Shown piece by piece: positions 6,005 to 38,411 of a DNA stretch of 64,000 bases. The notes under the pieces were generated by a model. That model was not told where the DNA came from. It did no database searches and worked only from the letters and a program-made list of their open reading frames with translations. This DNA comes from Candidatus Kerfeldbacteria bacterium. GTDB lineage: Bacteria; Patescibacteriota; Patescibacteriia; UBA9570; XYC2-FULL-38-9. The stretch spans positions 65,185 to 129,184 of the forward strand of contig JBDRKW010000020.1 of the NCBI GenBank assembly GCA_043813585.1, in the 5' to 3' direction. The first letter of the stretch is position 1, and the number at the start of each line of letters is the position of its first letter. The position numbers and the translations under genes are program-made.

Positions 6005-6076
6005 TGGGGAGTCGCCAAGCGGTAAGGCACCAGGTTTTGGTCCTGGTTATCGGGGGTTCGAATCCCTCCTCCCCAG
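6005..6076 (+). tRNA. tRNA-Gln (anticodon TTG)
   Basis: 72-nt cloverleaf. Acceptor UGGGGAG/CUCCCCA (the U1:A72 pair typical of bacterial tRNA-Gln), anticodon arm CCAGG-TTTTGGT-CCTGG, T-loop TTCGAAT, discriminator G. CCA is not encoded. Confidence 0.85.
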
Positions 6077-6084
6077 CAGAAAAC

Positions 6085-6330: not shown

Positions 6331-8463
6331 ATGAAAACAGGCTCATACATCATCCTTGCGGTGATCGGAGTCATCGCGGTTGCCGGAGGTATTTACCTAT
6401 TCCTGCAGTGGGCTCAACTGGAAGAACAGCTGCAGCAGCAAATCGGCACGACCACGTTCGAATCAAATTTTAATTTCAAACGGTTTGCCGACGAAAATGA
6501 CTTCAGCAATTATCTGACGCTTGTTGAGGAAACGGTCGGGGACACCTCCGGCTACGGTGCGGGATTCGGCAGCACGCGGACTATGGCTCTTGAAGACGGT
6601 GCCATGGAAGTTAATGCTATTGATGAATCTGCAAAGGGCGCTCCGCAAGTGGACCGCGTTTCGGAGACCAACGTGCAGGTGCAGGACATTGACGAACCGG
6701 ATATTGTCAAAACAAACGGCGAAGAGATTTTCCTCTCACTAGAACAGTGGTACTACCCGTGGTATGGCGTGGATGACGTACGGTTTGAGGAGATTCCCGT
6801 AACTTCAACGTCCAGTGTTGATGAGGATTCTTCAAGTGAAGAACCGGGTGCGGCTGATGATTCGGGCGATTCAAGCGAAGGCAGCGCCGGAGCGGCAACA
6901 GGCGATGAGGATGCTCCGGAAGATGCAAAAATCGCAGCACCTGATTTCTATGAGCCGCAAAATAATGTATCGGTCGTGAAGGCGTTACCGCCGGAAGCAA
7001 TGGAAAAACTTTCCACCATCGACACGACCGGCGACCTCCTACTGTCCGGCGATGTGCTTGTCGCCATCGGGTATGAAGGAATCAAGGGGTTTGACATATC
7101 CGACCCGGCGCAGCCCACAGAAAAATGGTCATATGATTTTGAAAACGATTCGTACTATGACACCGCACGGCTGTATGGCAATACGATTTATCTTGTGCTG
7201 CAAACCCCATTGGACTACGGATCGCCATGTCCGGTAAGGCCGTTGTCAGACGGCGAGATGTACACCGTGGCATGCGCTGATATCTATTATCCCGGCGCTC
7301 CGGTACGGACAGAGCTCACCAGCACTATCCTGAGCATTGACGCTCCAAGCGGGTTCATCAACGACAGCGTCACCTTTACCGGTTCGTATGACCAGTCCGT
7401 GATCTACATGTCCAAAGACAACCTGTACGCCACCTACGCATATACTGCGCCGACCTATGTGATGATGTACGGCTTCTTTACGACGGATGGCGCAGACCTG
7501 TTCCCGGCAGCGACGATTGACCGGTTGAAGGCCGTGAACGGATATGATATTTCAGTGGAAGCGAAGATGGTGGAACTCGAGCAAACGTTGACAAAGTACA
7601 TGGAAACGCTTTCGGACGATGACGCGCTGACATTCGAGACCAACATCGAAGACCGTCTTGATAAATTCTACGATAACCACCTGCGCGAATTCGAACGCAC
7701 GGACATCACGAAGATCGGCACGGACAGTTTCGAAGTCGCCGCAACCGGCAGCGTACCCGGCCATCCGTTGAACCAGTTCTCGCTGGATGAATACAACAAC
7801 CACTTGCGCATTGCGACCACGATCGGCGAATCGTTCTGGTTCGGGATTACAGCAAATACTTTAAACGACCTATATGTGCTCGATAGCAACCTGAAGCAGA
7901 CCGGTTCGGTCATGGATCTGGGCGAAGGCGAGCGCATCTACTCAACACGCTTTATCGGCGATGTCGGCTACATGGTCACATTCCGAGAGACCGACCCGTT
8001 CTACGTGTTTGACCTGTCAAACCCGAACGCGCCGAAAAAGACGGGTGAATTGAAGATTCCGGGGTATTCAGCATATCTGCACCCAATTTCCGAAGACCGC
8101 GTTCTCGGCATCGGCAGGGAAGACCAGCAGGTCAAAGTTTCGCTGTTTGACGTAAGTGATCCCTCAAACCCAACAGAAAAAGACAAGTACCAGCTGAACG
8201 AATACTGGTCCGATATCCTGGACACGCATCATGCATTCCTGCTTGATGAGAAGTACAGCGTCTTCTTCCTGCCTGGAAGCAACGGAGGATACGTGCTCTC
8301 CTATGAAAACGACAAGCTGGAGCTGAAAAAAGCGGTGAGCGATATTCAGGCAAAACGCGCGCTGTATATCAACGATTACCTGTATATCCTGGGCAGCGAC
8401 AAGATTGTCGTGCTTTCGGAAAAAGACTGGGAGCGGGCCGGCCAGCTGAAACTGTTCGAATAA
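6331..8463 (+). CDS. membrane-anchored extracytoplasmic protein, putative beta-propeller domain protein
   Basis: N-terminal TM/signal anchor. The motif 'VDRVSETNVQVQDIDEPDIVKTNGEEIF' resembles the Beta_propel (PF09826-like) family as I recall it. An acidic low-complexity linker follows. No enzymatic motifs recognised. Confidence 0.35.
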   Translation: MKTGSYIILAVIGVIAVAGGIYLFLQWAQLEEQLQQQIGTTTFESNFNFKRFADENDFSNYLTLVEETVGDTSGYGAGFGSTRTMALEDGAMEVNAIDESAKGAPQVDRVSETNVQVQDIDEPDIVKTNGEEIFLSLEQWYYPWYGVDDVRFEEIPVTSTSSVDEDSSSEEPGAADDSGDSSEGSAGAATGDEDAPEDAKIAAPDFYEPQNNVSVVKALPPEAMEKLSTIDTTGDLLLSGDVLVAIGYEGIKGFDISDPAQPTEKWSYDFENDSYYDTARLYGNTIYLVLQTPLDYGSPCPVRPLSDGEMYTVACADIYYPGAPVRTELTSTILSIDAPSGFINDSVTFTGSYDQSVIYMSKDNLYATYAYTAPTYVMMYGFFTTDGADLFPAATIDRLKAVNGYDISVEAKMVELEQTLTKYMETLSDDDALTFETNIEDRLDKFYDNHLREFERTDITKIGTDSFEVAATGSVPGHPLNQFSLDEYNNHLRIATTIGESFWFGITANTLNDLYVLDSNLKQTGSVMDLGEGERIYSTRFIGDVGYMVTFRETDPFYVFDLSNPNAPKKTGELKIPGYSAYLHPISEDRVLGIGREDQQVKVSLFDVSDPSNPTEKDKYQLNEYWSDILDTHHAFLLDEKYSVFFLPGSNGGYVLSYENDKLELKKAVSDIQAKRALYINDYLYILGSDKIVVLSEKDWERAGQLKLFE

Positions 8464-8553: not shown

Positions 8554-10923
8554 ATGGAGAGATTACGTTTTATTAAAGCACTGGCGATTGCAGGATCCGC
8601 ATCAGTGTTCATTTTTGCGTGTACGGCTGTTCCTGCAAGCGCGACAAATTATGTTGTTACAAAGACAGCAGACACGAATGACGGTACGTGCAACAGCGAT
8701 TGTTCGCTTCGCGAAGCTATTCGCGCTGCAAATGATGTTTTAGGGGACGATGAAGTTACGATTCCTGCCGGGACATACACGTTCACCCTGGCGGGGCGCG
8801 GGGAAGATGCCGCATCAACCGGCGACTTGGACATTGAAGACAATCTCATCATTCGGGGTGATAAGGCATCGAATACCATCATTGACGCGGACGATCTGGA
8901 CAGGGTCTTTGAGGTTGAAGCAGGATGGATAGTGGAACTCCATGATCTCACCATCCAAAACGGTACGGCAGCGGTCGGGTCCGGTGCGAATGGGGGAGGC
9001 ATAGCGAACGAAGGCGTGCTATCCATTTATGATTGCATCATAAAGAATAATATCGCGTCTTCATTTTCAGGCGTGACCGGGGGATCGGGAAATGGCGGCG
9101 GCATCTATAATAACGGAGCAATGCCACTTATTGAGCGAACAACATTTGATGGCAATAAGGCAGTTATGAGCAGAAGTTCCAACTTCGGAACTGGCATGGG
9201 CGGTGCAATCTATAACAATTTGGAAATAACAACCATTAATGATTCTGAGTTTACCGGGAATTACGGCTCATATAATACCGGCACCGGGAACTTTGCCGGG
9301 TATGCCGGAGCCATTCATAATGACAGTACATTAGGGACATTAAAGCACTCAACCTTATCCAATAATGGAGCGGTCTACACCGAAGGCCTGGGAACAGGAT
9401 ATGGCGGCGGCATTTTTAACAATGGCACATGGACAACCCTACGCAACACAACATTCAAGGCAAACGTTGCCCTTGAGCACGAGGGCCCGGGATTTGCGGC
9501 GGGTTACGGAGGTGCAGCATTTAACAATAATTCGCTTCAAACCATTCAACGGGTAAAAATTCTCAACAATACGGCTAAGAAAGGCACGGGCCAGGGATAC
9601 GGTTATGCGGGAGGAGTGTTCATTAATGCACCGATAGCCACCATGGAGCATATGACGATAGACGGTAATGTGGCGTTAAGCTACAACAGTGTCTCGGGTT
9701 CCTCTCTCGGTTATGGGGGAGGACTGTACGTAAATAGTGTAGTGACTACATTCCGAAACACCACCATAAGCAATAACACCGCCAAAAAAGGATTCAATGA
9801 TGGAAATGGTTATGGCGGAGGCATGTATGTGAACAGTAAAATATCACATTTTCAGAACTCAACCGTGAGCGGCAATACGACATGTGAATATACTGGCAGC
9901 GGAACCGTGGGTTGCTGGGGCGGTGGCATATATGAAAATGCAGACGGATCGAGTTACGATCATGTAACAATAGCCGACAATACAACGGCAAACGTAACCG
10001 GTAGCGGGATGGCAAACGCAAGCGCCGGCGGGATTTTCCAGGGCGGCACTGCATTAGCGCTCAAAAATTCAATCCTTTCAGGCAATTACGAAGACGGTGA
10101 CCAAACAACCGCTTCTGACTGCGAAATTTGGGGAACACTGACATCAGGTGGATATAACATCTTCAGCGAGACAACAGACTGTACAGTAACTACATCCACT
10201 GGCGACCAAACAAACACAGATCCGGAGATCGGTATCCTCAATGATAATGGAGGGTTCAATGAAACACATAAACTGCTCGACGGATCACCTGCGCTAGACA
10301 AGATTCCAACGGCGGTCTGTACTTTGAATGAGGACCAGCGCGAAGTAGAGCGGCCGCAGGGCGAAAACAATAAATGCGATGTGGGCGCGTATGAGCTTGA
10401 ACAGTGGGGTGCGGTAGCCGAACTCGTTCCACAACAGAACACGGAACTCAAAGTAAAGTACACCTACGGCTCTGACCAGACCTTCGATGTCTTTACAACT
10501 GGTACCGCAAAACCAAAGTGCAAACTGGCAAAAGACGGCGAGCGCATCGTCTGTGTGAAATACAACGGTAAAAACGTGAGTGTAACCGATTCTTGGTCTG
10601 GCGAAGTACTTTCAAAAACAAAGATCAGGAAGAATAAGCAGCCGTATGTGAAGTTAAAAGTCTTCGACTTCTATGACGATGATCCAAAAAATGAGGTTGT
10701 GGTTGCATCGATCCGCAATAACAAATTGCGAACAACCATCATTACCCTCACGGACGAAAAAAGCAAACTAAAGAACGAAAATACGAAGAAGGAGGATCCT
10801 TTCACAAGGGACGGCTTTGATATTGATGGCCACAAGAAGCGAGTTCAGATTATGTACGGAAGCGACGTATTGCACGAATACAAGGTGAACAGCGACCGGG
10901 ATCTCGAAGACTGGAGTTCCTAG
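8554..10923 (+). CDS. secreted right-handed beta-helix repeat protein (CSLREA-motif N-domain, Pmp-like GGxI/FxxN rungs, conserved lysine-rich C-terminal module), paralog 1
   Basis: Signal peptide 'ALAIAGSASVFIFACTAVPASA'. N-domain 'TKTADTNDGTCNSDCSLREAIRAAND'. About ten ~22-aa rungs 'GYGGGIYNNG / GGAIYNN / GGAAFNNN'. A ~165-aa C-terminal domain is about 80% identical to that of the paralog. Confidence 0.6.
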   Translation: MERLRFIKALAIAGSASVFIFACTAVPASATNYVVTKTADTNDGTCNSDCSLREAIRAANDVLGDDEVTIPAGTYTFTLAGRGEDAASTGDLDIEDNLIIRGDKASNTIIDADDLDRVFEVEAGWIVELHDLTIQNGTAAVGSGANGGGIANEGVLSIYDCIIKNNIASSFSGVTGGSGNGGGIYNNGAMPLIERTTFDGNKAVMSRSSNFGTGMGGAIYNNLEITTINDSEFTGNYGSYNTGTGNFAGYAGAIHNDSTLGTLKHSTLSNNGAVYTEGLGTGYGGGIFNNGTWTTLRNTTFKANVALEHEGPGFAAGYGGAAFNNNSLQTIQRVKILNNTAKKGTGQGYGYAGGVFINAPIATMEHMTIDGNVALSYNSVSGSSLGYGGGLYVNSVVTTFRNTTISNNTAKKGFNDGNGYGGGMYVNSKISHFQNSTVSGNTTCEYTGSGTVGCWGGGIYENADGSSYDHVTIADNTTANVTGSGMANASAGGIFQGGTALALKNSILSGNYEDGDQTTASDCEIWGTLTSGGYNIFSETTDCTVTTSTGDQTNTDPEIGILNDNGGFNETHKLLDGSPALDKIPTAVCTLNEDQREVERPQGENNKCDVGAYELEQWGAVAELVPQQNTELKVKYTYGSDQTFDVFTTGTAKPKCKLAKDGERIVCVKYNGKNVSVTDSWSGEVLSKTKIRKNKQPYVKLKVFDFYDDDPKNEVVVASIRNNKLRTTIITLTDEKSKLKNENTKKEDPFTRDGFDIDGHKKRVQIMYGSDVLHEYKVNSDRDLEDWSS

Positions 10924-11015: not shown

Positions 11016-13613
11016 ATGGAGAGATTTCACTTAATCAAAGCGTTGGCAATTACAGGAACATTGTCAGTGTGCTTTTTTGCACTTTCAGCCGTACCGGCAA
11101 GTGCAGACACGTTTGTTGTTACCAAATCCGCAGACACTAATGATGGTACTTGCGACAACGACTGCTCTCTGCGTGAAGCCATTCGCGCTGCAAATGATCA
11201 ATTAGGAGAAGATTCCATCTCATTGCCGGCCGGTACGTATACATTATCAATCGCCGGGCGCGGTGAGGAGGCCGCATCAACCGGCGACCTGGACATTGAG
11301 GAGAATCTGGTCTTTTGGGGTTCGCATGCGACAACAACCTTCATTGATGCCGATGAACTGGACCGCGTGTTTCAGGTGGAACCGGGAGTGACCTTTGAAC
11401 TGCATAGTGTAACCATCCGCGACGGCGTGGCAAACGTCAACGCGAACGGCTACGGCGGCGGCCTCTTTAACAGCGGCACGCTAAAGGTCTACGATTGCAT
11501 ATTTGAAAGCAATACTGCGACATACCTGTCGTCAGGCGCATCAGGCACCGGCTACGGCGGCGGCATTTACAGCAATAACGGAACCATCGATATAATCGAA
11601 GGCACCACGTTTAAAGACAATATTGCGGTCCATAACACAACAACGAATATCGGCACCGGCTACGGCGGCGGCGTCTATAATAACAACGGTACGCTCACTG
11701 AATTAGCGTCCAGTTCGTTCGAGAATAACAGGGCGGAGTATAACACGGGAACAGGAACACATACCGGTTTCGGGGGCGGATTATGGAACGGCGGCACGGT
11801 CGGGCTAGTTAAGTACACGCAATTTACCGAAAATGCCGCAAACGAAAGCACGCAGGCAGGTAACGGGTGGGGAGGCGGTCTCTATAACGCCGGGACAATG
11901 AACGTGGTGCGCGATTCGACGTTTTCTGAAAACACCGGCCTGATAAATAATTCACTCGCAACAGCTAGCGGACAGGGCGGCGGCGTGTACAACAGCGGCA
12001 CTCTCAAAGTGTTGCAGCGCGTAACGCTGGAGGGTAACCACGGAAAAACCGGGTCCGGACCGGGCGGCGGGAGCGGAGGCGCCATCAGAAACATCGGCGA
12101 TATGAATAACCTTGAAGACCTGGTGGTTCAGGAAAACGTGGCTCTTGATTATGACGGTGCCGCATCATCGGCAGCATACGCCGGCGGGCTGTCCAACAAC
12201 GGAACAATATTAAAAATTCAGCGTTCAACCTTCAGTGGCAATATCGGCAGGATCGGCTCTGGAGCCGGCGATGTGTACGGCGGCGGTATCTTCGACCAGG
12301 GAGCTATTAACGCGCTCGAAAATTCAACGATTAGCGGGAACACCGCTCTCTATGACGAAAGTAGCTCTGGTACCAACAGGGGCGAGGGCGGCGGCTACTG
12401 CAACTACGGTTCGGGCTCGACATTAACGAACGTTACCATCGCCGACAACGCTGCTCTGGTGAAGGACGGTGCAAATACAAGCGCCGGATATGGTGGCGGG
12501 TTCTATATTGCCGGCACGATGACGCTTTCGAACTCCATTGTTGCGGACAACACGGCAGGCGGCGCCGGCGATTCCCCGGATTGTGACAATAACAACACGA
12601 TGAATACAAACGGTTACAATATCGTCAGCGATACGACGAATTGTAATTGGAGTTTGGCAACAGGCGACAGAACGGATACAGATCCCGATTTGAATGAGCT
12701 CGCTGACAACGGCGGTTTTGGGGAAACACATTCTTTAAAAACCGGTTCGCTTGCCATAGACCAGATACCTATTGCAAACTGTTCGCTTGCCACTGATCAG
12801 CGTGTGCTTGACCGTCCCGAAGGCACCAAATGCGATATGGGCGCAGTCGAAATGGACCAGACCGCGCCGGTTCTTACTGTAGTCGGCGACTCACCGATGG
12901 ATATCTTGATAAATGATGAATATATCGAACGCTGGGCGTCAGCAACGGATAATTTTGATAACAATGTTCAATCCACGCTAACGTACGACGAACCCGTCAA
13001 CACAGGCAAGATAGGCACCTATTATGTGACCTATACCGCAACTGACAGGGATGGGAATGTCGGAACCGTTCAGCGCACGGTGAATGTCATAAGCCGCGGA
13101 GATGTCACGGAGTTGGTTCCAATGCAAAACACCGAATTGAAGGTCAAATATTCCGGAGGAACGGAACAGACCTTCGATGTGTTTGCAAAGGGCAAGGCAA
13201 AACCCAAATGCAAGCTGTCAAAAGATGAAGAACGCATTGTGTGCGTGAAGTATTCCGGACGCAACGTAAGCGTGCTTGATGCGCAGAGCGGAGAGGTCTA
13301 TTCCAAGAGCAAAATTCGGAAGTACAAGCAGTCGTATGTAAAGTTCAAGGTGATGAATTTCTACGATGACGATCCGAAGAATGAAATTATTGTAGCGACC
13401 ATTAGGGGAAGCAAGCTACGAACGACAATCCTGACGCTCACCGACGCAAACAGCAACCTGAAGAACAAAAATACCAAGAAAGAAGATCCATTTACGAGTG
13501 ACGGCTTCACTATCAAGAAATACAAGAAACGGGTACAGATTAAATACCGCAGTAACGTGCTGCACCAATACAAAGTAAACAGCGACCGCGACCTTGAGGA
13601 TTGGGGTTCGTAG
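11016..13613 (+). CDS. secreted right-handed beta-helix repeat protein, paralog 2, with an additional Ig-like (DUF5011-type) insert
   Basis: N-terminal about 65% identical to paralog 1 (CSLREA motif conserved). Eleven GYGGG(I/L/V)YN rungs. The insert 'TAPVLTVVGDSPMDILINDEYIERWASATDNFDNNVQS...YYVTYTATDRDGNVGTVQRTVNV' matches the DUF5011 Ig-like domain. C-terminal module shared with paralog 1. Confidence 0.6.
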   Translation: MERFHLIKALAITGTLSVCFFALSAVPASADTFVVTKSADTNDGTCDNDCSLREAIRAANDQLGEDSISLPAGTYTLSIAGRGEEAASTGDLDIEENLVFWGSHATTTFIDADELDRVFQVEPGVTFELHSVTIRDGVANVNANGYGGGLFNSGTLKVYDCIFESNTATYLSSGASGTGYGGGIYSNNGTIDIIEGTTFKDNIAVHNTTTNIGTGYGGGVYNNNGTLTELASSSFENNRAEYNTGTGTHTGFGGGLWNGGTVGLVKYTQFTENAANESTQAGNGWGGGLYNAGTMNVVRDSTFSENTGLINNSLATASGQGGGVYNSGTLKVLQRVTLEGNHGKTGSGPGGGSGGAIRNIGDMNNLEDLVVQENVALDYDGAASSAAYAGGLSNNGTILKIQRSTFSGNIGRIGSGAGDVYGGGIFDQGAINALENSTISGNTALYDESSSGTNRGEGGGYCNYGSGSTLTNVTIADNAALVKDGANTSAGYGGGFYIAGTMTLSNSIVADNTAGGAGDSPDCDNNNTMNTNGYNIVSDTTNCNWSLATGDRTDTDPDLNELADNGGFGETHSLKTGSLAIDQIPIANCSLATDQRVLDRPEGTKCDMGAVEMDQTAPVLTVVGDSPMDILINDEYIERWASATDNFDNNVQSTLTYDEPVNTGKIGTYYVTYTATDRDGNVGTVQRTVNVISRGDVTELVPMQNTELKVKYSGGTEQTFDVFAKGKAKPKCKLSKDEERIVCVKYSGRNVSVLDAQSGEVYSKSKIRKYKQSYVKFKVMNFYDDDPKNEIIVATIRGSKLRTTILTLTDANSNLKNKNTKKEDPFTSDGFTIKKYKKRVQIKYRSNVLHQYKVNSDRDLEDWGS

Positions 13614-13646: not shown

Positions 13647-13675
13647 TTGATTTATTCCGGTAAATATGCTATCTT
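13647..13675 (+). promoter_or_regulatory. putative promoter (TTGATT-17-TATCTT) for the 13688-16471 cassette
   Basis: Hexamers with a 17-nt spacer, ending 12 nt before ATG 13688. Confidence 0.3.
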
Positions 13676-13687
13676 TTCATGTTCCAT

Positions 13688-13858
13688 ATGGCGATTGACC
13701 AGCACAGCAAACAACAAGTCCAACAGATGCAGTCCATATACGAGCGGGCATTGCAACAGCTTCAGGCGATCCGCGAGAGCAGGAAACAGTGGAGCGTATG
13801 GTTTGCCGACCATGTAAACAAGAGGAAAATCGAAAAAATAAAGAAAGAGCTGCAGTAA
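13688..13858 (+). CDS. small hypothetical protein (56 aa, Q-rich coiled-coil)
   Basis: ATG..TAA ORF 'MAIDQHSKQQVQQMQSIYERALQQLQAIRESRKQWSVWFADHVNKRKIEKIKKELQ', below the 60-aa cutoff of the ORF track. Its stop lies 1 nt before ATG 13860. Confidence 0.35.
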   Translation: MAIDQHSKQQVQQMQSIYERALQQLQAIRESRKQWSVWFADHVNKRKIEKIKKELQ

Positions 13859-13859
13859 T

Positions 13860-15983
13860 ATGCCAGGACTCGAAGGAGCCCCGTCCAGTGCTCCGCAGGA
13901 AAAACAATCGCAAGAGAAAGCGCCTGCAGTAGAACGCGCTGCCGGTCTTGACGTTGAAAGCCTGGACACACCGGAAAAGCGCAGGGAATTCGGCGAACAG
14001 CTGCAACAGGCGCTCCATGCGCAGAGCGAAGCTGTCCGGAACGACATTGCCGAAGGGAGCAGGCGCCTGGACAGGGATTCAGCAGACCTGTCACGTGAAG
14101 AGGTCGCTGATATCTATCCGCAGGCGCAAGCCGCCTTTCAACAACTGGAGACACAGGCTGTTCAGATAGATGCACAGGCAACCGCGCAAATTGATAGCGT
14201 GATTGCCGAGGAGCAAGGTGGAACCGTTCCCGAAGGAGCTTCATTGCGCATAACACGTTCGGAAGCGGAGCTGCAGGCGCTTCGGGACGTTGAACTGGTC
14301 GGTCCGGAAAAATACGGTAAAAGCCTGGTAAAGGAACACCACCGGGACAACATGACGGTGGGCGAGCACGAACAGGCTCAGGAGAAGGCGATGCAGGCGA
14401 TGCAGGAGAAAATTGATGCAGGCGTGATTGATCCGGGGTCAATTTCGAGCGACATGTTGCGCGAACTCGGAGTTGAGCCGGGCACCGAAGGCGCGCCGGA
14501 TTCATTCGACTCTATCATAGGCAGTATTCGAACAGAGCTTACCAAATTTCGCTCCGAAGGATACATCCCGAATTTGGAGGAAGGCGTTGCGATCGAGAAG
14601 GAAATCCGCGAATATATTGACATCTATAGGGAATCGTTTCCGGACGCACCGCCGCAGAAAGTATTCGAAGTGGCCCGCGATAACGCGAGAAAGCTCGCCT
14701 ACCAGACCAGCAGGGATAAAGAAGTGTTCTCAGGGTCTGACCACGGAACCAAACATATCCTGGACGGAAACATGAAGTTCGCCAACCAGATGCTCGACAG
14801 CCTGCAAAAGCAGGGAGTTGACGTGTCTGCGAAAGACAAGCTCTTCATCCACCAGATCATCATTGACCATGACATTGGGTATACGGTTGGAGCCGCGCAG
14901 GCAAAGAAAGGCTTTGAAGCGTCGAAAGACCATCCGCTGTTCAGCACGAAGTTCGTGGAGCAAAACGAAGAGTATTACAAGGATAAGTTCGGCGAGGACG
15001 GGTACAAGATGATTCGTGACGGCATCCTCTACCACAGCTACCCCAAAACAGAACTCAATACGCCGCGTTCAGGTCCTGACGCGGTCAACGTCGATTTGGT
15101 CCGTTCGGTCACTTCCATTGTTGATGGCCTGGGAGTGACGGCGGAGACGAAGACGCCGGCGTTCTTCCAGAAACCGGAAGCGATTTCCACACTCATGAAG
15201 CTTCGTCTTGCCATGGAGGCAGGTGCGACAAAAGACAATCCGTCATTGCTGGATACTTATAAAGCCGATTTGCGGGAAATAGCAGACAAAGAACCGAATG
15301 AAAAACGGCGGACCCAGTTCGGCAAAGCAATTGATGATTTTTTCAATGAATATACTGCTGAAGTGACTCTCGGCCACTATACCGGCGTTGTGCAGGAAGT
15401 GGGCGTCACAATGCAGGGAGACAAGTTCGTCCCCCATGTCAAAGCAAAAATGTCGCGGATACACGCTCTTCTTGGTGACATGTTCGGCGGCAAGCTTGAG
15501 GGCCAGGCGTTTATGAAAGCGATGCAGGAGTTCGGCGTGGAAAGTAATGAGATGAATCGGTTCGGCCTTGAGCTGGAAATTGCGAGGAAAAACGCGATCA
15601 TACGGGAAAAGCCGCTGCAAATGAGGTCAGAGACCGCAGTATTCGAAGTTGATTCCCGATTTATCGAGGAAACTGATAACCAGTACGCCGATATTGAAGC
15701 CGCGATAAGCGAAGTGTACGGCACTTCAATTCGCTCCGAAATCAACAGCATTCTGGACAGCTTTAAAAAAAATCCTGAACTGGCGAGGGAAAACGTTGAC
15801 GAAATACGCGACCGGTTCATCTTTTCTACCACGGAAAAAGCAACAGCGGACGAATTAAAGCAGATACAAACCATGATTGACGGACTTGCAAACCCCGACC
15901 CGGCCGTCGCGCAGGGCGCAGGGGATCAGCTGCGGCATTTCCTGACGGCGGAAGAAAAAAAGCTTTTAAAAATACAAACATGA
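13860..15983 (+). CDS. large hypothetical protein (707 aa) with disordered Q/E/A-rich N-terminus and a possible HD-type phosphohydrolase motif
   Basis: Uninterrupted 707-codon ORF. A central 'SDHGTKHIL ...(37 aa)... IIIDHDIGY ... KDHPLFS ... ILYHSYP' pattern fits the H..HD..H..H spacing of HD domains. No other family recognised. The competing minus-strand ORFs are R/P-rich GC artefacts. Confidence 0.55.
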   Translation: MPGLEGAPSSAPQEKQSQEKAPAVERAAGLDVESLDTPEKRREFGEQLQQALHAQSEAVRNDIAEGSRRLDRDSADLSREEVADIYPQAQAAFQQLETQAVQIDAQATAQIDSVIAEEQGGTVPEGASLRITRSEAELQALRDVELVGPEKYGKSLVKEHHRDNMTVGEHEQAQEKAMQAMQEKIDAGVIDPGSISSDMLRELGVEPGTEGAPDSFDSIIGSIRTELTKFRSEGYIPNLEEGVAIEKEIREYIDIYRESFPDAPPQKVFEVARDNARKLAYQTSRDKEVFSGSDHGTKHILDGNMKFANQMLDSLQKQGVDVSAKDKLFIHQIIIDHDIGYTVGAAQAKKGFEASKDHPLFSTKFVEQNEEYYKDKFGEDGYKMIRDGILYHSYPKTELNTPRSGPDAVNVDLVRSVTSIVDGLGVTAETKTPAFFQKPEAISTLMKLRLAMEAGATKDNPSLLDTYKADLREIADKEPNEKRRTQFGKAIDDFFNEYTAEVTLGHYTGVVQEVGVTMQGDKFVPHVKAKMSRIHALLGDMFGGKLEGQAFMKAMQEFGVESNEMNRFGLELEIARKNAIIREKPLQMRSETAVFEVDSRFIEETDNQYADIEAAISEVYGTSIRSEINSILDSFKKNPELARENVDEIRDRFIFSTTEKATADELKQIQTMIDGLANPDPAVAQGAGDQLRHFLTAEEKKLLKIQT

Positions 15984-16471
15984 CCACGCCACCTTCAAAT
16001 CAGTACGAACGCCAGTTGCGCAATTCAAAGGATACGGCCGAGGAAGAGGAGCGCCGCTCCAGGATGTACGCGCGCATGTTAGATTACATTGAACAACAGG
16101 TACCGGGTTTTACAGTAGGACCGATGGAAGCCGTCACCCTCGCGTATATCTGCAATAAAAAAATTGATGTGCTTCCCCATGACGCGACTGCCGAGACGGT
16201 AACACAGCAGGTATTCGGAATAGAGCAGGGGGACACCGCGCTGGATGCGATGTGGAAAATCCAGCAGGTGGTGCACGGCTGCACAATGGAGGGAATCGAC
16301 AGGCTCGTGCAGGAAGCGCATGGAAATGATGAGGAACGAGCGAAAATGGAAACCCTGCGCTCTATGGTGGCTGCGTCGCATCAAGATAAAGAGGAGAAAT
16401 ACAAAAAAGGCAAGATGTTCAGTATTGGAAAGATCCCTGCGTATTGGAAACCCAGCTGGCTCAAGCTGTAA
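15980..16471 (+). CDS. hypothetical protein (163 aa), translationally coupled to the 707-aa protein
   Basis: ATGA overlap with the upstream stop. No recognisable motif. Confidence 0.5.
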   Translation: MTTPPSNQYERQLRNSKDTAEEEERRSRMYARMLDYIEQQVPGFTVGPMEAVTLAYICNKKIDVLPHDATAETVTQQVFGIEQGDTALDAMWKIQQVVHGCTMEGIDRLVQEAHGNDEERAKMETLRSMVAASHQDKEEKYKKGKMFSIGKIPAYWKPSWLKL

Positions 16472-34939: not shown

Positions 34940-36691
34940 ATGACCTCGAAAGAGTTTAGGCATTTCAAACCGGAAAAAGTCCTCATCCCGGAAACAGAAA
35001 AAGGCGGCCTGCCGTCCGAGGGTACCCAGATTATTCATGACCAGGACGGCCGGATCGCGTTTTGCGGCTCCCCGCACGATGTTGCGCAGTGGGTGAACGC
35101 CCGGCGCGACGAGGGTGCCACATTTCGAACAGAAGAAGGGGGAGTGCTGCTTCCCGGGCTGGCAGACACGCATTACCACCCTGCAATTTACGGCACGCTC
35201 GAGCTCCTAAGGCCGGCAGACGCGTCCGCAGTAAAATCGGCCGGACAGCTGCGCAACCTCGCGCAGGAGGCGCTGCGCGAACGCAAAGGCGAAACACACT
35301 CGGACGAGCCGCTGGTGATATTGAATTACGATTCTTCACAGGTTGGAAGCTTCAGCGAGCTGAACATGGACGAGGTGGAGGCGACACAGCCGATATTCGT
35401 GCTGGACCGGTCGTTCCACAGCGGCGCGGGCAATTCTGCAGCAATGCGGGTGCTTGACCGGTATTTGGAAAAAAATTACAGCCAGCGCAAACAGAAGTCA
35501 GGCGCGTACGATTTCCCTGGCTATATGAAAAAGCAGGAAATTGCGGAAGCGTTTGTATTCCTGGCAATGGAGTTAGCCGAATCATACCAATCCGTGGAAA
35601 AGGTTGAAGGCGCGATTGAGACGAGCGTGGAAAATTACCTCGCGAAAGGCGTGACGTCGATCCACGAGATGGCGGTCATGTCCTGGCAACAGCTTATGGC
35701 GTACCTGTTGCTTCACAAGGAATGGAAAGGGAAGCACCCGAAGATGGAGTTCCCGGTGAGGCAGATCTACCTAACCGACGCCGTAGTCGAGCGGTTCGTG
35801 CGCGAAGAGGATGCGCTGGTGAAATCCGGTTTGCTGACCGACGATATCAAGGGAATATTAGGAGTGAAACTGCTGGCTGACGGATCAATCGGCAGCAGGA
35901 CCGCGCTTATGGATGAACCCTATTTGTCCGCTGACCAAAAGAAACAGCACGGCATCATCTACAACCGCATGCGCGAGGCGGAAAAAGCGCTCAAACTGGC
36001 AGCACGGTCCGGTTTGGATAAAGTTGCGGTGCATGCGATCGGCGATAAAGGCATTGTGCGCGCCATCGAATTCGGCCGCAAATGGATGGAGATCGCGGAA
36101 AAAGGGAAGATTGACCCGAAATTCCGCATGGAGCATTTTGAACTTCCGCAGCCCGAATCTATTCGCGAGGCAGGGGAGATGGGCGCATGGGTGTCCATGC
36201 AGCCGAATTTTGGACTGGAAGACATTGTGTACCATGACCGCATCGGCAACCGCACGCGGCTGCTCTGTCCGCACGCTGACCTGACGAACGAAGGCGTGCC
36301 GATGATGTTCGGGAGCGACGGCATGCCGGACAGCATGTTGTACGTCATCTGGTCAGCCATGCACCACCACGACCCGAAACACCGGCTGGACGCCATATCA
36401 GCCGTGACAGCCGCATCTGCGGCTGCAGGCGCGTATGAGGGTTCGCTGCGCGGGACGCTGCAGCCCGGGTCGCAGACCGATATTGTGGTGGCGTCGCCGG
36501 AGCTGCTGCAGGTGCTGGCAGACGGACGGCTTGCACAGGACTATTTTGAACAGGCCGACCTGCCGCCTGACCAGCGGACGATCCCGATCCGCGACCAGGT
36601 TGGCGAGCTGGAACGCCGGATTTTGCGGGTATTCAGGAACGGGCAGCTTGTCCATGCAGCAGATTCGGAGAAGGACGGGAAAAGCAGTTGA
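34940..36691 (+). CDS. amidohydrolase family protein (Amidohydro_3-like metal-dependent hydrolase)
   Basis: 'LLPGLADTHYHPA' (HxH metal site), 'VLDRSFHSGAGNS', 'VAVHAIGDKGIVRAIEFG', 'GSDGMPDS'. GC-rich (~58-60%). Confidence 0.7.
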   Translation: MTSKEFRHFKPEKVLIPETEKGGLPSEGTQIIHDQDGRIAFCGSPHDVAQWVNARRDEGATFRTEEGGVLLPGLADTHYHPAIYGTLELLRPADASAVKSAGQLRNLAQEALRERKGETHSDEPLVILNYDSSQVGSFSELNMDEVEATQPIFVLDRSFHSGAGNSAAMRVLDRYLEKNYSQRKQKSGAYDFPGYMKKQEIAEAFVFLAMELAESYQSVEKVEGAIETSVENYLAKGVTSIHEMAVMSWQQLMAYLLLHKEWKGKHPKMEFPVRQIYLTDAVVERFVREEDALVKSGLLTDDIKGILGVKLLADGSIGSRTALMDEPYLSADQKKQHGIIYNRMREAEKALKLAARSGLDKVAVHAIGDKGIVRAIEFGRKWMEIAEKGKIDPKFRMEHFELPQPESIREAGEMGAWVSMQPNFGLEDIVYHDRIGNRTRLLCPHADLTNEGVPMMFGSDGMPDSMLYVIWSAMHHHDPKHRLDAISAVTAASAAAGAYEGSLRGTLQPGSQTDIVVASPELLQVLADGRLAQDYFEQADLPPDQRTIPIRDQVGELERRILRVFRNGQLVHAADSEKDGKSS

Positions 36692-36741: not shown

Positions 36742-36917
36742 AGCCTTTTTGGGTGATCTTTATACATTTCTGCGAAACGGCAAGCAGCAGGTTTTTAGGT
36801 TGAATTTCGGGCGTTTTGAGTCCAATTAAACCTAGAACACCTTCTGCTTGTTGACGATTAGCGTTGACTGCAGAGAAGGAAACACGATACCAAAACGGGT
36901 ACTGGGAGGTACAAACC

Positions 36918-38411
36918 ATGGGAATGCTGTTTACCGGAAGGTTTCTGACGTTGCTTGATGAGACGGTCGACAAGGTTCTGGTCGACGACGACGGACTGAT
37001 CGTCGCGACCGGCGACTTGGCCGGCTTGCTGGTCAAGAACGCCGAGATCGAGACCGTCGAGCTCCCGGGCTACACCATGCCCGGATTCCGGTCCGAGCAC
37101 GATCACATGCTGTTCACGCTCGTGGCCGGCTCGCTGTCGCTGCGCGGCGTGGACAACGAGGGCGAGGCCGCGACCCTGATCCGGACAGCACTCGGCCGGC
37201 GGCCCGAGGGGTGGGTGGTGATCACCGACTGGAACGACTCGGTACTCAACACCGCCCAGATGTCCGATCTCGTCAATATCCTGGCTGCCGACCGCATGCT
37301 CCTCGTGCTCAACACGAGCTGGCACAGTGCCTTCGGGTCCAGGAACCTGATCAAGCACGTGAGCCCGACGCTCCGCGCCATGAACCTGGCCACCGGCTCG
37401 TGCATCGGCCAGTTACTGACGGAGGACCACGTGCTGCAGACGGTCAGCCTGATGCAGACCAACGCAGATGCGCTGGTCAGCTCGGTGATGGACCGTCAGC
37501 AGTTCCTGTTCAGCAAGGGTGTCACCAGCATGTTCGACAAGCTGGTGCACGGCGAGGCGATTCACGATGCCATGGAGCGCGCCTCTCGCGCCGGATGGCT
37601 GAAGTACCACATCTTCGCGGCCGTGCAGCCGTGGATGATGCGCAACGGTCTCATGCCCGGTCCGCGCGGACGGAGCTTCGAGGTGAAATGGATGAAGTAC
37701 CTGGCCGACGGGTCCTTCGGCTCCCGCACCGCCTTCATGGCCCGCGATTACGGCATGATGTACTCCGACGGCACCGAAGGCGTCTTCCAGCTGCCGCCGC
37801 CCAGCGAGATTTACGACGACCTGACCGAGTGGCTGGACAAGGGCGGCGAGGGCCTCTGCGTCCACGCCATCGGCCCTGGTGCGGTGCACAACGTCATCGG
37901 CCTGTTCGAATGGCTATACAAGCGCATCGGCGATAAGTCGGTGATGATGTCGCTCGAGCACGGTACCACCTGGGTGCCGGGCCTGGTCGAGCGCTTCGCC
38001 AAGTTGCAGCACGCGGGATACAACATCCGGCTCTGCAGCCAGATGTCGTTCACCGAGGACGCCAGCCAGTACGCGGACAGGCTGCCGCAGATCGTTTGCG
38101 ATGCCATCAACCCGTATGCTGACTTCGAACGCTGCGGGGTACTCTACAGTGGCGGGACCGACGGCCCGATCTGCAACGACGACCACCTCGGTGGGACGTC
38201 GCAGGCGGTGAACCGGCCAGGTTCCCAGGCGATCGACGCCCAGACCGCGCTTCGCCGGGTCACGGAGGGTCCGATGGAGGCCGGAATGCCGTTCAACATG
38301 GTGTGCCTCAATCGCGACATCATCGAGAAGCCCATGGAAATGGCGCTGGCACAACCGCTGCAGACCTGGATCAACGGCAAGAAGGTCTGGGAGAAGAGCG
38401 ATAACGAGTAG
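36918..38411 (+). CDS. amidohydrolase family protein (Amidohydro_3-like), compositionally foreign (~64-66% GC)
   Basis: Same architecture as the upstream paralog ('ELPGYTMPGFRSEHDHM', 'VLNTSWHSAFGS', 'LCVHAIGPGAVHNVIGLFEW', 'YSGGTDGP'), about 25-30% identical. SD GGGAGGT lies 7 nt before ATG 36918. The track start is TTG 36864. Confidence 0.7.
   Translation: MGMLFTGRFLTLLDETVDKVLVDDDGLIVATGDLAGLLVKNAEIETVELPGYTMPGFRSEHDHMLFTLVAGSLSLRGVDNEGEAATLIRTALGRRPEGWVVITDWNDSVLNTAQMSDLVNILAADRMLLVLNTSWHSAFGSRNLIKHVSPTLRAMNLATGSCIGQLLTEDHVLQTVSLMQTNADALVSSVMDRQQFLFSKGVTSMFDKLVHGEAIHDAMERASRAGWLKYHIFAAVQPWMMRNGLMPGPRGRSFEVKWMKYLADGSFGSRTAFMARDYGMMYSDGTEGVFQLPPPSEIYDDLTEWLDKGGEGLCVHAIGPGAVHNVIGLFEWLYKRIGDKSVMMSLEHGTTWVPGLVERFAKLQHAGYNIRLCSQMSFTEDASQYADRLPQIVCDAINPYADFERCGVLYSGGTDGPICNDDHLGGTSQAVNRPGSQAIDAQTALRRVTEGPMEAGMPFNMVCLNRDIIEKPMEMALAQPLQTWINGKKVWEKSDNE

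What the first reader, a model, noticed from the sequence alone, without database searches (positions are those of the whole stretch)
13647..16471. Three-gene cassette of unknown function: 56-aa Q-rich protein, 707-aa protein with disordered N-terminus and HD-like metal-hydrolase motif, 163-aa partner
The three ORFs are tightly coupled (stop/start separated by 1 nt at 13858/13860, ATGA overlap at 15980). Their GC content is noticeably higher than that of the flanking ribosomal and housekeeping genes. The cassette sits at the distal end of the tRNA-Gln-flanked accessory block and ends 4 bp from a convergent gene with no terminator. The 707-aa protein has a ~200-aa low-complexity Q/E/A-rich N-terminal region. 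Its central region has the spacing 'DHGTKH ...(37 aa)... IIIDHDIGY ... KDHPLFS ... ILYHSYP', which fits the H..HD..H..H..D signature of HD-domain phosphohydrolases. I recognise nothing else in any of the three proteins. The small first gene (coiled-coil, W-containing) fell below the ORF-track length cutoff. It may be a regulator, chaperone or immunity-like partner.
Basis: partly seen in the sequence, partly recalled or inferred. Interest (0 to 1): 0.55.

Follow-up and report, generated by a model that had tools for sequence, protein, structure and literature searches.

The report
Conserved HD-like enzyme with two partners
Three tightly packed genes in a Kerfeldbacteria (CPR) genome form a conserved, unnamed cassette: a 707-aa protein with a very divergent HD-type metal-hydrolase core, a fast-evolving 163-aa partner and a 59-aa helical protein; the same core also occurs inside giant proteins of other CPR bacteria.

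Summary
The three ORFs are real and tightly coupled: 13679-13858, 13860-15983 and 15980-16471. The window comes from a Candidatus Kerfeldbacteria MAG.

None of the three proteins matches Pfam, NCBIfam, PADLOC, PHROGs or PDB sequences.

- **HD-like core.** H295, H299, H337-D338, H358 and H392 are invariant in 64 homologs, and D422 is at least 90% conserved. AlphaFold models the protein with high confidence (pLDDT 91). Fold searches give no significant hit, but the best weak hits are HD-superfamily proteins. Pfam HD is the commonest weak hit among distant relatives. I read this as a very divergent HD-superfamily domain; formal membership is not proven.
- **Conserved cassette.** The 163-aa protein has relatives directly downstream in about 20 of 23 related loci and co-diverges with the large protein. 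The small protein recurs directly upstream in 10 loci, counting this window, and about 930 nt upstream in one more.
- **Wider family.** A core profile finds 418 cluster representatives. Many are Pfam-blank giant proteins of 1.4-6.6 kaa.
- **Claims that fail.** The GC content is ordinary. I found no evidence for a mobile island. The N-terminus is largely a helical hairpin, not 200 aa of disorder.

My best reading is a metal-dependent phosphoesterase kept in check by its partner, probably as part of a conflict or host-interaction system. Substrate and role are inferred, not shown.

The parts
13679..13858 (+). Small gene: 59 aa from the first ATG, or 56 aa from the ATG at 13688. From its sequence it looks like a single amphipathic helix, but it was not modelled. 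Consensus in relatives: ..IY..Y...L..L..KQ..I...F.K.LE.KKI..I+K.L
   Evidence: ORF. An HMM built from 9 positional homologs in other loci scores it at 22.6 bits (E 5e-6); the best of 1000 shuffles scores 12.6. It lies 1 nt before the large gene.
13860..15983 (+). Large gene, 707 aa: a soluble, almost all-alpha protein with no signal peptide and no hydrophobic segment
   Evidence: ORF. It has 64 homologs, none with a Pfam domain. AlphaFold2 gives pLDDT 91 and pTM 0.83. No hydrophobic 19-mer was found.
13860..14249 (+). Variable N-terminal region, residues 1-130: a short disordered tip (1-21) followed by two long helices (38-74 and 79-119)
   Evidence: Poorly conserved in A1/A2. Secondary structure and pLDDT. 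This region is missing in the Microgenomates-type homologs.
14637..15179 (+). HD-like core, residues about 260-440. Candidate metal ligands are H295/H299 (GSDHGxxH), H337-D338 (DHDxGY), H358 (KDHP), H392 (HSYP) and D422 (VDxLG). Conserved R277, Q282, D286 and K287 lie just upstream.
   Evidence: Invariant columns in the 64-sequence alignment. Foldseek top hits for the domain-only model are HD-superfamily proteins. Pfam HD gives weak hits in 8 of 69 distant members. hhalign puts the motifs in register with those of a bona fide HD family.
15180..15980 (+). Conserved C-terminal body, residues 441-707: helical bundles plus two beta-hairpins (509-531 and 586-598). No known relative.
   Evidence: AlphaFold2 model. 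No significant Foldseek hit in PDB or BFVD. Conserved K468, R483, N496, G509, G543, K553 and D557.
15980..16471 (+). Partner gene, 163 aa, whose start overlaps the large gene's stop (ATGA). Conserved C-terminal motif G-G/x-[VI]-x3-[YW]-x-P-x-W.
   Evidence: An HMM of 17 positional homologs scores it at 77.8 bits, E 4.6e-23. Alignment A11. Mantel r 0.896 with the large protein. No Pfam or PDB relative.

Best explanation
The 707-aa protein is an enzyme. Its core (residues about 260-440) is a very divergent HD-superfamily domain with a six-ligand, probably two-metal, His/Asp site: H299 (plus H295), H337-D338, H358, H392 and D422. It most likely cleaves a phosphoester or phosphodiester bond in a nucleotide-derived substrate.

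It is made together with, and acts as a unit with, the translationally coupled 163-aa partner. I infer that the partner binds the enzyme and holds it in check, in the manner of an inhibitor or immunity protein. I also infer that the 59-aa helical protein docks on the enzyme's variable N-terminal helical hairpin as an adaptor or chaperone.

The same catalytic module sits in the C-terminal part of Pfam-blank giant proteins of CPR bacteria, and one member comes from an Altiarchaeota MAG. In at least two cases it is followed by the same partner family. The cassette is therefore most likely part of a conflict or host-interaction armoury rather than core metabolism.

- **Shown:** gene coupling, conservation of the motif, conservation and co-divergence of the cassette, the high-confidence all-alpha model, and the family's distribution.
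- **Inferred:** HD homology (about 0.8), catalysis, physical complex formation, the inhibitory role of the partner, and the biological role.
For: - **Motif conservation.** The motif is invariant in 64 homologs and kept in distant and giant members.
- **Fold.** For the domain-only AlphaFold2 model (pLDDT 86.7), the Foldseek PDB top hits are YhaM 9h3f (prob 0.99, TM 0.47), HD-GYP 4r8z, the PPX C-terminal domain 3rf0, Bd1817 3tm8 and YqeK 8wmy. The full-length searches also bring up HD-type proteins among their weak hits: PPX, PDEs, YhaM and BT4208 in PDB, and the phage Goslar HD hydrolase in BFVD.
- **Pfam.** PF01966 is the most frequent weak hit among 69 distant members (8 hits, best E 1.5e-4; HD-CE in 3 more), and it hits 2 of the 64 close members.
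- **Profile comparison.** hhalign against a true CPR HD family aligns DHGxxH with CHDWSH, IDHDIGY with LLHDIGR, and ILYHSYP with IISHRF. The score is 18.7, against 13.6 +/- 2.2 for column-shuffled controls; 5 of 200 shuffles reach it.
- **Partner.** It scores 77.8 bits against an HMM built without it. It lies directly downstream in about 20 of 23 evaluable loci. Mantel r is 0.896 with 0 of 5000 permutations reaching it, and the partner diverges about twice as fast (23% vs 43% mean identity). The ATGA overlap is shown.
- **Small protein.** It recurs directly upstream in 10 loci counting this window, and about 930 nt upstream in one more.
- **Wider family.** There are 418 representatives, many of them giants with central hydrophobic pairs. 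Partner homologs follow the giants in L026 and L034 (63 bits under code 25).
- **Distribution.** It is sporadic: several CPR phyla, Vulcanimicrobiota and one Altiarchaeota MAG.
Against: - No single homology test is significant. Foldseek E-values are at least 0.26. hhalign gives probability below 1% and E 0.062. The window protein itself has no Pfam HD hit.
- There is no signal peptide, no known trafficking or secretion domain, and no secretion-system or defence neighbours in the window.
- The catalytic body is large (about 570 aa) and conserved rather than polymorphic, unlike classical polymorphic toxins.
- Several giants (L033, L036, L037) and the 770-aa clade (L023-25, L028) have a different downstream gene.
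- The small gene is missing in the Microgenomates-type and Vulcanimicrobiota-type loci.
- No complex model could be built, so the proposed binding of the partner and of the small helix is untested.
Confidence: 0.4

Rival explanations
1. It is an intracellular housekeeping-type HD enzyme, for example one that turns over nucleotides, second messengers or RNA. The 163-aa protein would be a regulatory or specificity subunit, with no role in conflict.
For: - No export signal or hydrophobic segment.
- Characterised HD-domain enzymes are typically cytoplasmic (general knowledge of the HD superfamily).
- Neighbours in several loci are housekeeping genes: RlmD, Pth, tRNA synthetases and Maf.
- Strong purifying selection on a 570-aa body.
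Against: - The distribution is very sparse: 24 loci among 185,579 species genomes, although the scan depends on matching short patterns.
- The family crosses distant phyla at 40-50% identity.
- The module is embedded in giant Pfam-blank proteins with hydrophobic hairpins.
- The partner evolves fast.
Confidence: 0.3
2. It is an anti-phage or anti-plasmid defence cassette. The HD-like protein would be a nuclease effector, and the two small proteins would be sensor or regulator components.
For: - A sporadic, HGT-like distribution.
- A multi-gene cassette with an HD-type catalytic domain.
- Conflict-type neighbours in some loci: two Fic genes in L003, NACHT in L005, GIY-YIG in L007.
Against: - No PADLOC hit for any of the three proteins.
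- No defence genes in the window's neighbourhood.
- Flanking genes differ from locus to locus.
- Fusion into 2-6.6 kaa giant proteins is not typical of defence effectors.
- Not found on IMG/VR viral contigs.
Confidence: 0.12
3. It is a non-catalytic scaffold. The His/Asp cluster would bind a structural metal, or would be a relic, and the protein would act as a helical adaptor, for example in a cell-surface or division machine.
For: - A large all-alpha architecture with long helices.
- No significant match to any enzyme.
- It sits next to surface-protein genes in the window.
Against: - Six candidate ligands plus R277, Q282, D286, K287, K431 and others are invariant across at least 64 sequences at only 29% mean column identity, and they persist in relatives at 11-14% mean column identity. 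That is the pattern of an active site.
- The ligand order and spacing match two-metal HD enzymes.
Confidence: 0.1

Closest known systems
HD-superfamily metal-dependent phosphohydrolases (Pfam clan HD, PF01966). Nearest structural matches: YhaM (9h3f), HD-GYP PA4781 (4r8z) and Bd1817 (3tm8), PPX/GppA C-terminal domain (3rf0), YqeK (8wmy)
   Same: - The order of conserved ligands, H...HD...H...H...D, is that of two-metal HD enzymes.
- The domain is all-alpha.
- HD proteins are the top Foldseek hits.
- There are recurrent weak PF01966 hits.
- The motifs fall in register in hhalign.
   Different: - No test reaches significance, and the window protein does not hit PF01966 at all.
- Spacers between ligands are longer (38/21/34/30 residues).
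- There is an extra invariant GSDHG loop and a DHP motif.
- The domain is embedded in a conserved body of about 570 aa that has no relatives.
- It has dedicated partner genes.
Polymorphic toxin / effector-immunity cassettes with small helical accessory proteins (e.g. LXG toxins of type VII secretion, which have Lap-type helical partners upstream and an immunity gene downstream; from my own knowledge)
   Same: - The gene order is small helical protein, then a large protein with a variable helical N-terminus and a catalytic body, then a small fast-evolving gene that is translationally coupled downstream.
- The same catalytic module lies in the C-terminal part of much larger proteins.
   Different: - No LXG, WXG, RHS, PT-TG or other trafficking domain was detected.
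- No secretion system is nearby.
- The catalytic part is conserved, not polymorphic.
- I know of no type VII secretion system in CPR bacteria (from memory, not checked).
- Toxicity and immunity are untested.
Giant surface or membrane proteins of predatory or episymbiotic CPR bacteria (Vampirococcus lugosii, PMC8080830)
   Same: Many family members are proteins of 1.4-6.6 kaa from CPR-type genomes, including two loci that use genetic code 25. Many have hydrophobic segments.
   Different: - The giants described in that paper carry known adhesion and interaction domains (WD40, PKD, integrin and others).
- The giants found here have no Pfam domain at all.
- The window protein is not a giant and has no membrane segment.

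Membership tests
HD superfamily (PF01966-type phosphohydrolase domain) | Conserved H...HD...D metal-ligand signature (with extra H...H in two-metal members) | tested here: met
   H299, H337-D338, H358 and H392 are invariant and D422 is at least 90% conserved in 64 sequences. The signature is retained in giants and distant members.
HD superfamily (PF01966-type phosphohydrolase domain) | Significant sequence-profile match to an HD family model | tested here: not met
   The window protein has no PF01966 hit. The best hit in the family is E 1.5e-4, below Pfam's cut-off, in 8 of 69 distant members. hhalign against a CPR HD family gives E 0.062, with an empirical P of about 0.025.
HD superfamily (PF01966-type phosphohydrolase domain) | HD fold: a helical bundle that places the ligands around one pocket | tested here: inconclusive
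HD superfamily (PF01966-type phosphohydrolase domain) | Metal-dependent phosphoester hydrolysis | not testable with these tools
   This needs biochemistry.
Polymorphic toxin / effector-immunity system | Recognisable N-terminal trafficking or secretion domain, or linkage to a secretion system | tested here: not met
   No Pfam or NCBIfam domain in the N-terminus. No secretion genes among the neighbours.
Polymorphic toxin / effector-immunity system | Small cognate gene immediately downstream that co-varies with the toxin | tested here: met
   The partner family lies directly downstream in about 20 of 23 loci. Mantel r is 0.896. The start overlaps the stop as ATGA. This shows position and co-variation only; an immunity function was not tested.
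Polymorphic toxin / effector-immunity system | Toxicity of the large protein, neutralised by the downstream protein | not testable with these tools
   This needs expression experiments.
Known anti-phage defence systems (PADLOC-DB v2) | Match of any component to a defence-system model | tested here: not met
   No hit below E 0.03 for any of the three proteins.

The most novel reading that the evidence does not exclude
The cassette is the minimal, stand-alone form of a previously unrecognised effector module of ultra-small symbiotic or predatory prokaryotes. On this reading, an HD-like phosphoesterase 'warhead' of about 570 aa is delivered to host or competitor cells. It acts either alone, with a helical adaptor, or as the C-terminal payload of 2-6.6 kaa giant proteins that carry a membrane-inserting hydrophobic hairpin. 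The downstream protein would be its dedicated immunity factor. That would give a first functional handle on some of the Pfam-blank giant proteins of CPR bacteria, and perhaps of Altiarchaeota-type archaea.
Probability: 0.25. Interest if true: 0.75.

Novelty: new variant of a known kind. Interest (0 to 1): 0.55.

Why it matters
CPR bacteria make up a large share of bacterial diversity, yet most of their lineage-specific proteins, the giant ones above all, have no assigned function.

This work defines a sizeable family that is absent from Pfam: 418 clusters at 50% identity. The family has a high-confidence structural model, a candidate active site and two dedicated partner families. The 707-aa stand-alone form is small enough to express and assay.

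If the module proves to be a partner-controlled phosphoesterase, that result would carry over directly to the catalytic part of many giant proteins in symbiotic or predatory CPR lineages. It would also add an extreme outlier to the HD superfamily.

If it proves to be an ordinary intracellular enzyme, the gain is a new HD family with a regulatory subunit. That would be useful but modest.

Tried and rejected
- **Library searches of the three proteins.** Pfam, NCBIfam, PADLOC, PHROGs and PDB sequences gave nothing.
- **Profile searches against PDB sequences.** Profiles A2, A7, A10 and A11 returned only coiled-coil or chance hits, such as designed repeats, haemagglutinin, STING and IncA.
- **Other weak Pfam hits in family members.** DUF6507, CdiI_2, TetR_C, Lipoprotein_10 and DotY were followed up on 10 proteins. 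They fall at inconsistent positions and are noise.
- **hhalign against an HD family.** The close-family core (A5) against a CPR HD family gave probability 0.12%. A diverse 179-sequence core gave E 0.062.
- **Viral comparisons.** BFVD gave no significant match. IMG/VR viral contigs hold no relatives.
- **GC or tRNA island idea.** Rejected.
- **Signals and RNAs.** No promoter consensus was found, and terminator-like hits were at chance level. No Rfam element lies in the region.
- **The 2471-aa giant next to the P0007 homolog (L035).** It is not a family member within its first 2003 aa.
- **Small gene versus N-terminal length.** Presence of the small gene does not track the length of the large protein's N-terminus.
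- **Small protein fused into the large one.** The small-protein HMM found no match inside the large proteins that lack the small gene.
- **Literature.** Searches found no description of this family.
Full report
**What is there.**
The window comes from a Candidatus Kerfeldbacteria MAG. The 707-aa protein is identical to NCBI's ABIG66_04250, which lies on a 351-kb contig.
Three same-strand ORFs are packed without intergenic space:
- 13679-13858, 59 aa.
- 13860-15983, 707 aa.
- 15980-16471, 163 aa.

The junctions are TAA-T-ATG and an ATGA overlap. The last stop lies 4 nt from the stop of a convergent RlmD-like methyltransferase gene.
The scan found no promoter consensus, and terminator-like hits were at chance level. 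No Rfam element is present.

**What does not hold.**
The GC claim fails. The trio has GC 0.517, against 0.493 +/- 0.029 for equal-sized windows. Its GC3 is like that of the neighbouring genes. Only the A/E/Q-rich first 200 codons are raised, at 0.57.
The 'accessory block' idea is unsupported. After tRNA-Gln (6005-6077) come a secreted beta-propeller protein and two paralogous CSLREA / choice-of-anchor-Q surface proteins. Downstream lie RlmD, acylphosphatase, ACP synthase, an acyl-AMP ligase and an acyltransferase. No integrase or defence gene is present.
The N-terminus is not 200 aa of disorder. AlphaFold2 leaves only residues 1-21 unstructured and builds two long helices, 38-74 and 79-119.

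**The large protein.**
Pfam, NCBIfam, PADLOC, PHROGs and PDB sequences all give nothing.
A word-indexed search found 64 homologs, all 'hypothetical' and all without Pfam domains. They come from Kuenen-, Roizman-, Uhr-, Kerfeld-bacteria, Minisyncoccia and Eremiobacterota.
In the 64-sequence alignment the invariant columns include G292-S293-D294-H295-G296, H299, H337-D338, G340-Y341, D357-H358-P359 and H392. D422 and K431 are at least 90% conserved. This is against a mean column identity of 29%.
The full-length AlphaFold2 model is confident (pLDDT 91, pTM 0.83). It is almost entirely helical, with two beta-hairpins.

**Is it an HD domain?**
Four independent lines of evidence point the same way, but none is significant alone.
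1. *Fold search.* Foldseek of the full model against PDB has no hit below E 0.09, but the weak hits include PPX, PDEs, YhaM and BT4208. A domain-only model (residues 228-508, pLDDT 86.7) puts HD proteins on top:
   - YhaM 9h3f: E 0.26, prob 0.99, TM 0.47.
   - HD-GYP PA4781 4r8z.
   - PPX C-terminal domain 3rf0.
   - Bd1817 3tm8.
   - YqeK 8wmy.

   In BFVD, among the few hits above prob 0.3 are the phage Goslar 'HD superfamily hydrolase' (prob 0.63) and a poly(A) polymerase; two other such hits are a minor tail protein and an unnamed protein.
2. *Pfam.* PF01966 hits 2 of the 64 close members (best E 0.0083). It is the most frequent family among 69 distant members (8 hits, best E 1.5e-4), with HD-CE in 3 more.
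3. *Profile comparison.* I compared a diverse 179-sequence core profile (Neff 6.2) with a genuine CPR HD family, taken from the PF01966 gene in locus L005. hhalign aligns 88 columns and puts DHGxxH on CHDWSH, IDHDIGY on LLHDIGR, and ILYHSYP on IISHRF, with E 0.062. Column-shuffled controls score 13.6 +/- 2.2 against the real 18.7, and 5 of 200 reach it.
4. *Ligand order.* The order and spacing of the ligands are those of two-metal HD enzymes, with longer spacers.

**The cassette is conserved.**
Word-indexed search found no homolog of the 163-aa protein. However, every context I examined had a gene of 147-169 aa directly downstream of the large gene.
An HMM built from 17 of these, excluding the window, scores the window's protein at 77.8 bits (E 4.6e-23). 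The best of 1000 shuffles scores 6.9 bits.
The partner family shares a C-terminal G-G-[VI]-x3-[YW]-x-P-x-W motif. It has no Pfam or PDB relatives.
Across 18 loci, the identity matrices of the large protein and the partner correlate with Mantel r 0.896; 0 of 5000 permutations reach this value. The partner diverges about twice as fast, at 23% against 43% mean identity.

The small protein is also a family. An HMM of nine others scores the window's at 22.6 bits, against 12.6 for the best shuffle.
Relatives sit 2-19 nt upstream of the large gene (overlapping its longest-ORF start in L007) in L003, L005, L007, L011, L012, L018, L019 (two copies), L022 and L030. In L008 the relative lies about 930 nt upstream.
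The small gene is absent from the Microgenomates-type and Vulcanimicrobiota-type loci. Its presence does not track the length of the large protein's N-terminus.
Flanking genes differ from locus to locus.

**The family is larger than it first looked.**
A scan of species-representative genomes found 24 loci. They lie in several CPR phyla, three Vulcanimicrobiota MAGs and a few MAGs with other or placeholder labels.
An exhaustive HMMER search with the core profile found 418 representatives at E <= 1e-3, of which 108 are at E <= 1e-30. Many are proteins of 1.4-6.6 kaa that carry the module in their C-terminal third. One is from an Altiarchaeota MAG.
The giants keep the motifs. They have no Pfam domain at all. 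Many carry two adjacent hydrophobic 19-mers in mid-protein.
The giants in L026 and L034 (the latter read with code 25) are followed by homologs of the window's partner, at 102.9 bits and 63.1 bits. Other giants (L033, L036, L037) have a different downstream gene of about 200 aa and a 108-164-aa gene upstream.
The family is not found on IMG/VR viral contigs.
Giant membrane proteins of predatory CPR bacteria have been proposed to mediate host recognition and attachment (PMC8080830). Neither that paper nor the other searches describe this module.

**How it most likely works.**
*Shown:*
- A conserved candidate active site in a confidently folded helical protein.
- Obligate genomic coupling and co-divergence with a small partner.
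- A frequent small helical companion.
- Reuse of the module in giant proteins.
- A sporadic, cross-phylum distribution.

*Inferred:*
- The protein is a two-metal phosphoesterase.
- The co-translated partner binds it and restrains it.
- The small helix docks on the N-terminal hairpin.
- The system serves conflict or host interaction, not core metabolism.

I give the whole chain a confidence of 0.4.
The main rival, at 0.3, is an intracellular HD enzyme with a regulatory subunit. Its support is the lack of any export signal and the housekeeping neighbours.
A defence system (0.12) has no PADLOC or neighbourhood support.
A non-catalytic scaffold (0.1) fits poorly with the pattern of invariant polar residues.

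**Verdict.**
This is a new, Pfam-blank and very divergent branch of a known superfamily, with a new architecture and new partner families. I rate it a new variant of a known kind.
Interest is moderate at 0.55. The cassette offers a tractable entry point into CPR 'dark' giant proteins, but its function is still inferred.

Noticed in passing
window 8554-10923 and 11016-13613 (also 6331-8463): Two tandem paralogous surface proteins of the CSLREA / choice-of-anchor-Q type lie directly upstream of the cassette on the same strand. Their N-terminal ~60 aa and C-terminal ~170 aa are highly similar, while their middles differ. A secreted beta-propeller protein precedes them.
   Followed up: partly
window 37001-38000 (ORF 36864-38411): A 1-kb stretch has GC 0.65 against a window mean of 0.49. 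It lies in the second of two tandem ORFs whose translations look amidohydrolase-like to my eye (no family search run), 34940-36691 and 36864-38411.
   Followed up: no
L034 5001-13853; L036 3001-11043: Two giant family members read with 66 and 118 in-frame stops under table 11 but only 1 under table 25. Their genomes therefore use the UGA=Gly code typical of Gracilibacteria and Absconditabacteria.
   Followed up: yes
P0235, P0242, P0249, P0267, P0274, P0277, P0283, P0285, P0288, P0292 and others: Many giant members have two adjacent hydrophobic 19-mers (a possible membrane hairpin), in most of them about 800-1000 aa into the protein (375 to 1314 at the extremes). Several share an N-terminal start of the type 'MSP...Q..ID.LD.K.D.K.D'.
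   Followed up: partly
P0317 (2440 aa): One family member carrying the HD-like module (residues 695-931) comes from a Candidatus Altiarchaeota archaeon MAG. The module therefore appears to cross the bacteria/archaea boundary, unless this is a binning error.
   Followed up: no
L030 4314-6083 and 5978-6637: In Uhrbacteria RIFCSPHIGHO2_02_FULL_53_13 the large gene is split into two overlapping ORFs. This is either a frameshift or pseudogene, or an assembly error. The small gene and the partner are still present.
   Followed up: no
L019 4259-4486 and 4492-4677: Two tandem copies of the small helical gene lie upstream of the large gene. This locus shows no partner-type ORF downstream.
   Followed up: no
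L001 8452-9798; L006 8473-9769: The Microgenomates-type loci share two further conserved genes after the partner (133/117 aa and 312/313 aa, no Pfam). They lack the small upstream gene.
   Followed up: no
L023, L024, L025, L028 (770-780-aa clade): One clade of the large protein has neither the small gene nor the partner. Instead it is followed by an ORF of 420-460 aa with no Pfam domain.
   Followed up: partly
L026 294-7244 (giant, around residues 600-640): The N-terminal extension of this 2316-aa giant contains a stretch, '...AIICPFSQINNSLFMNLANAQL...', that loosely recalls a degenerate Fic motif. Two Fic genes also lie just upstream of the cassette in L003. This may well be coincidence.
   Followed up: no
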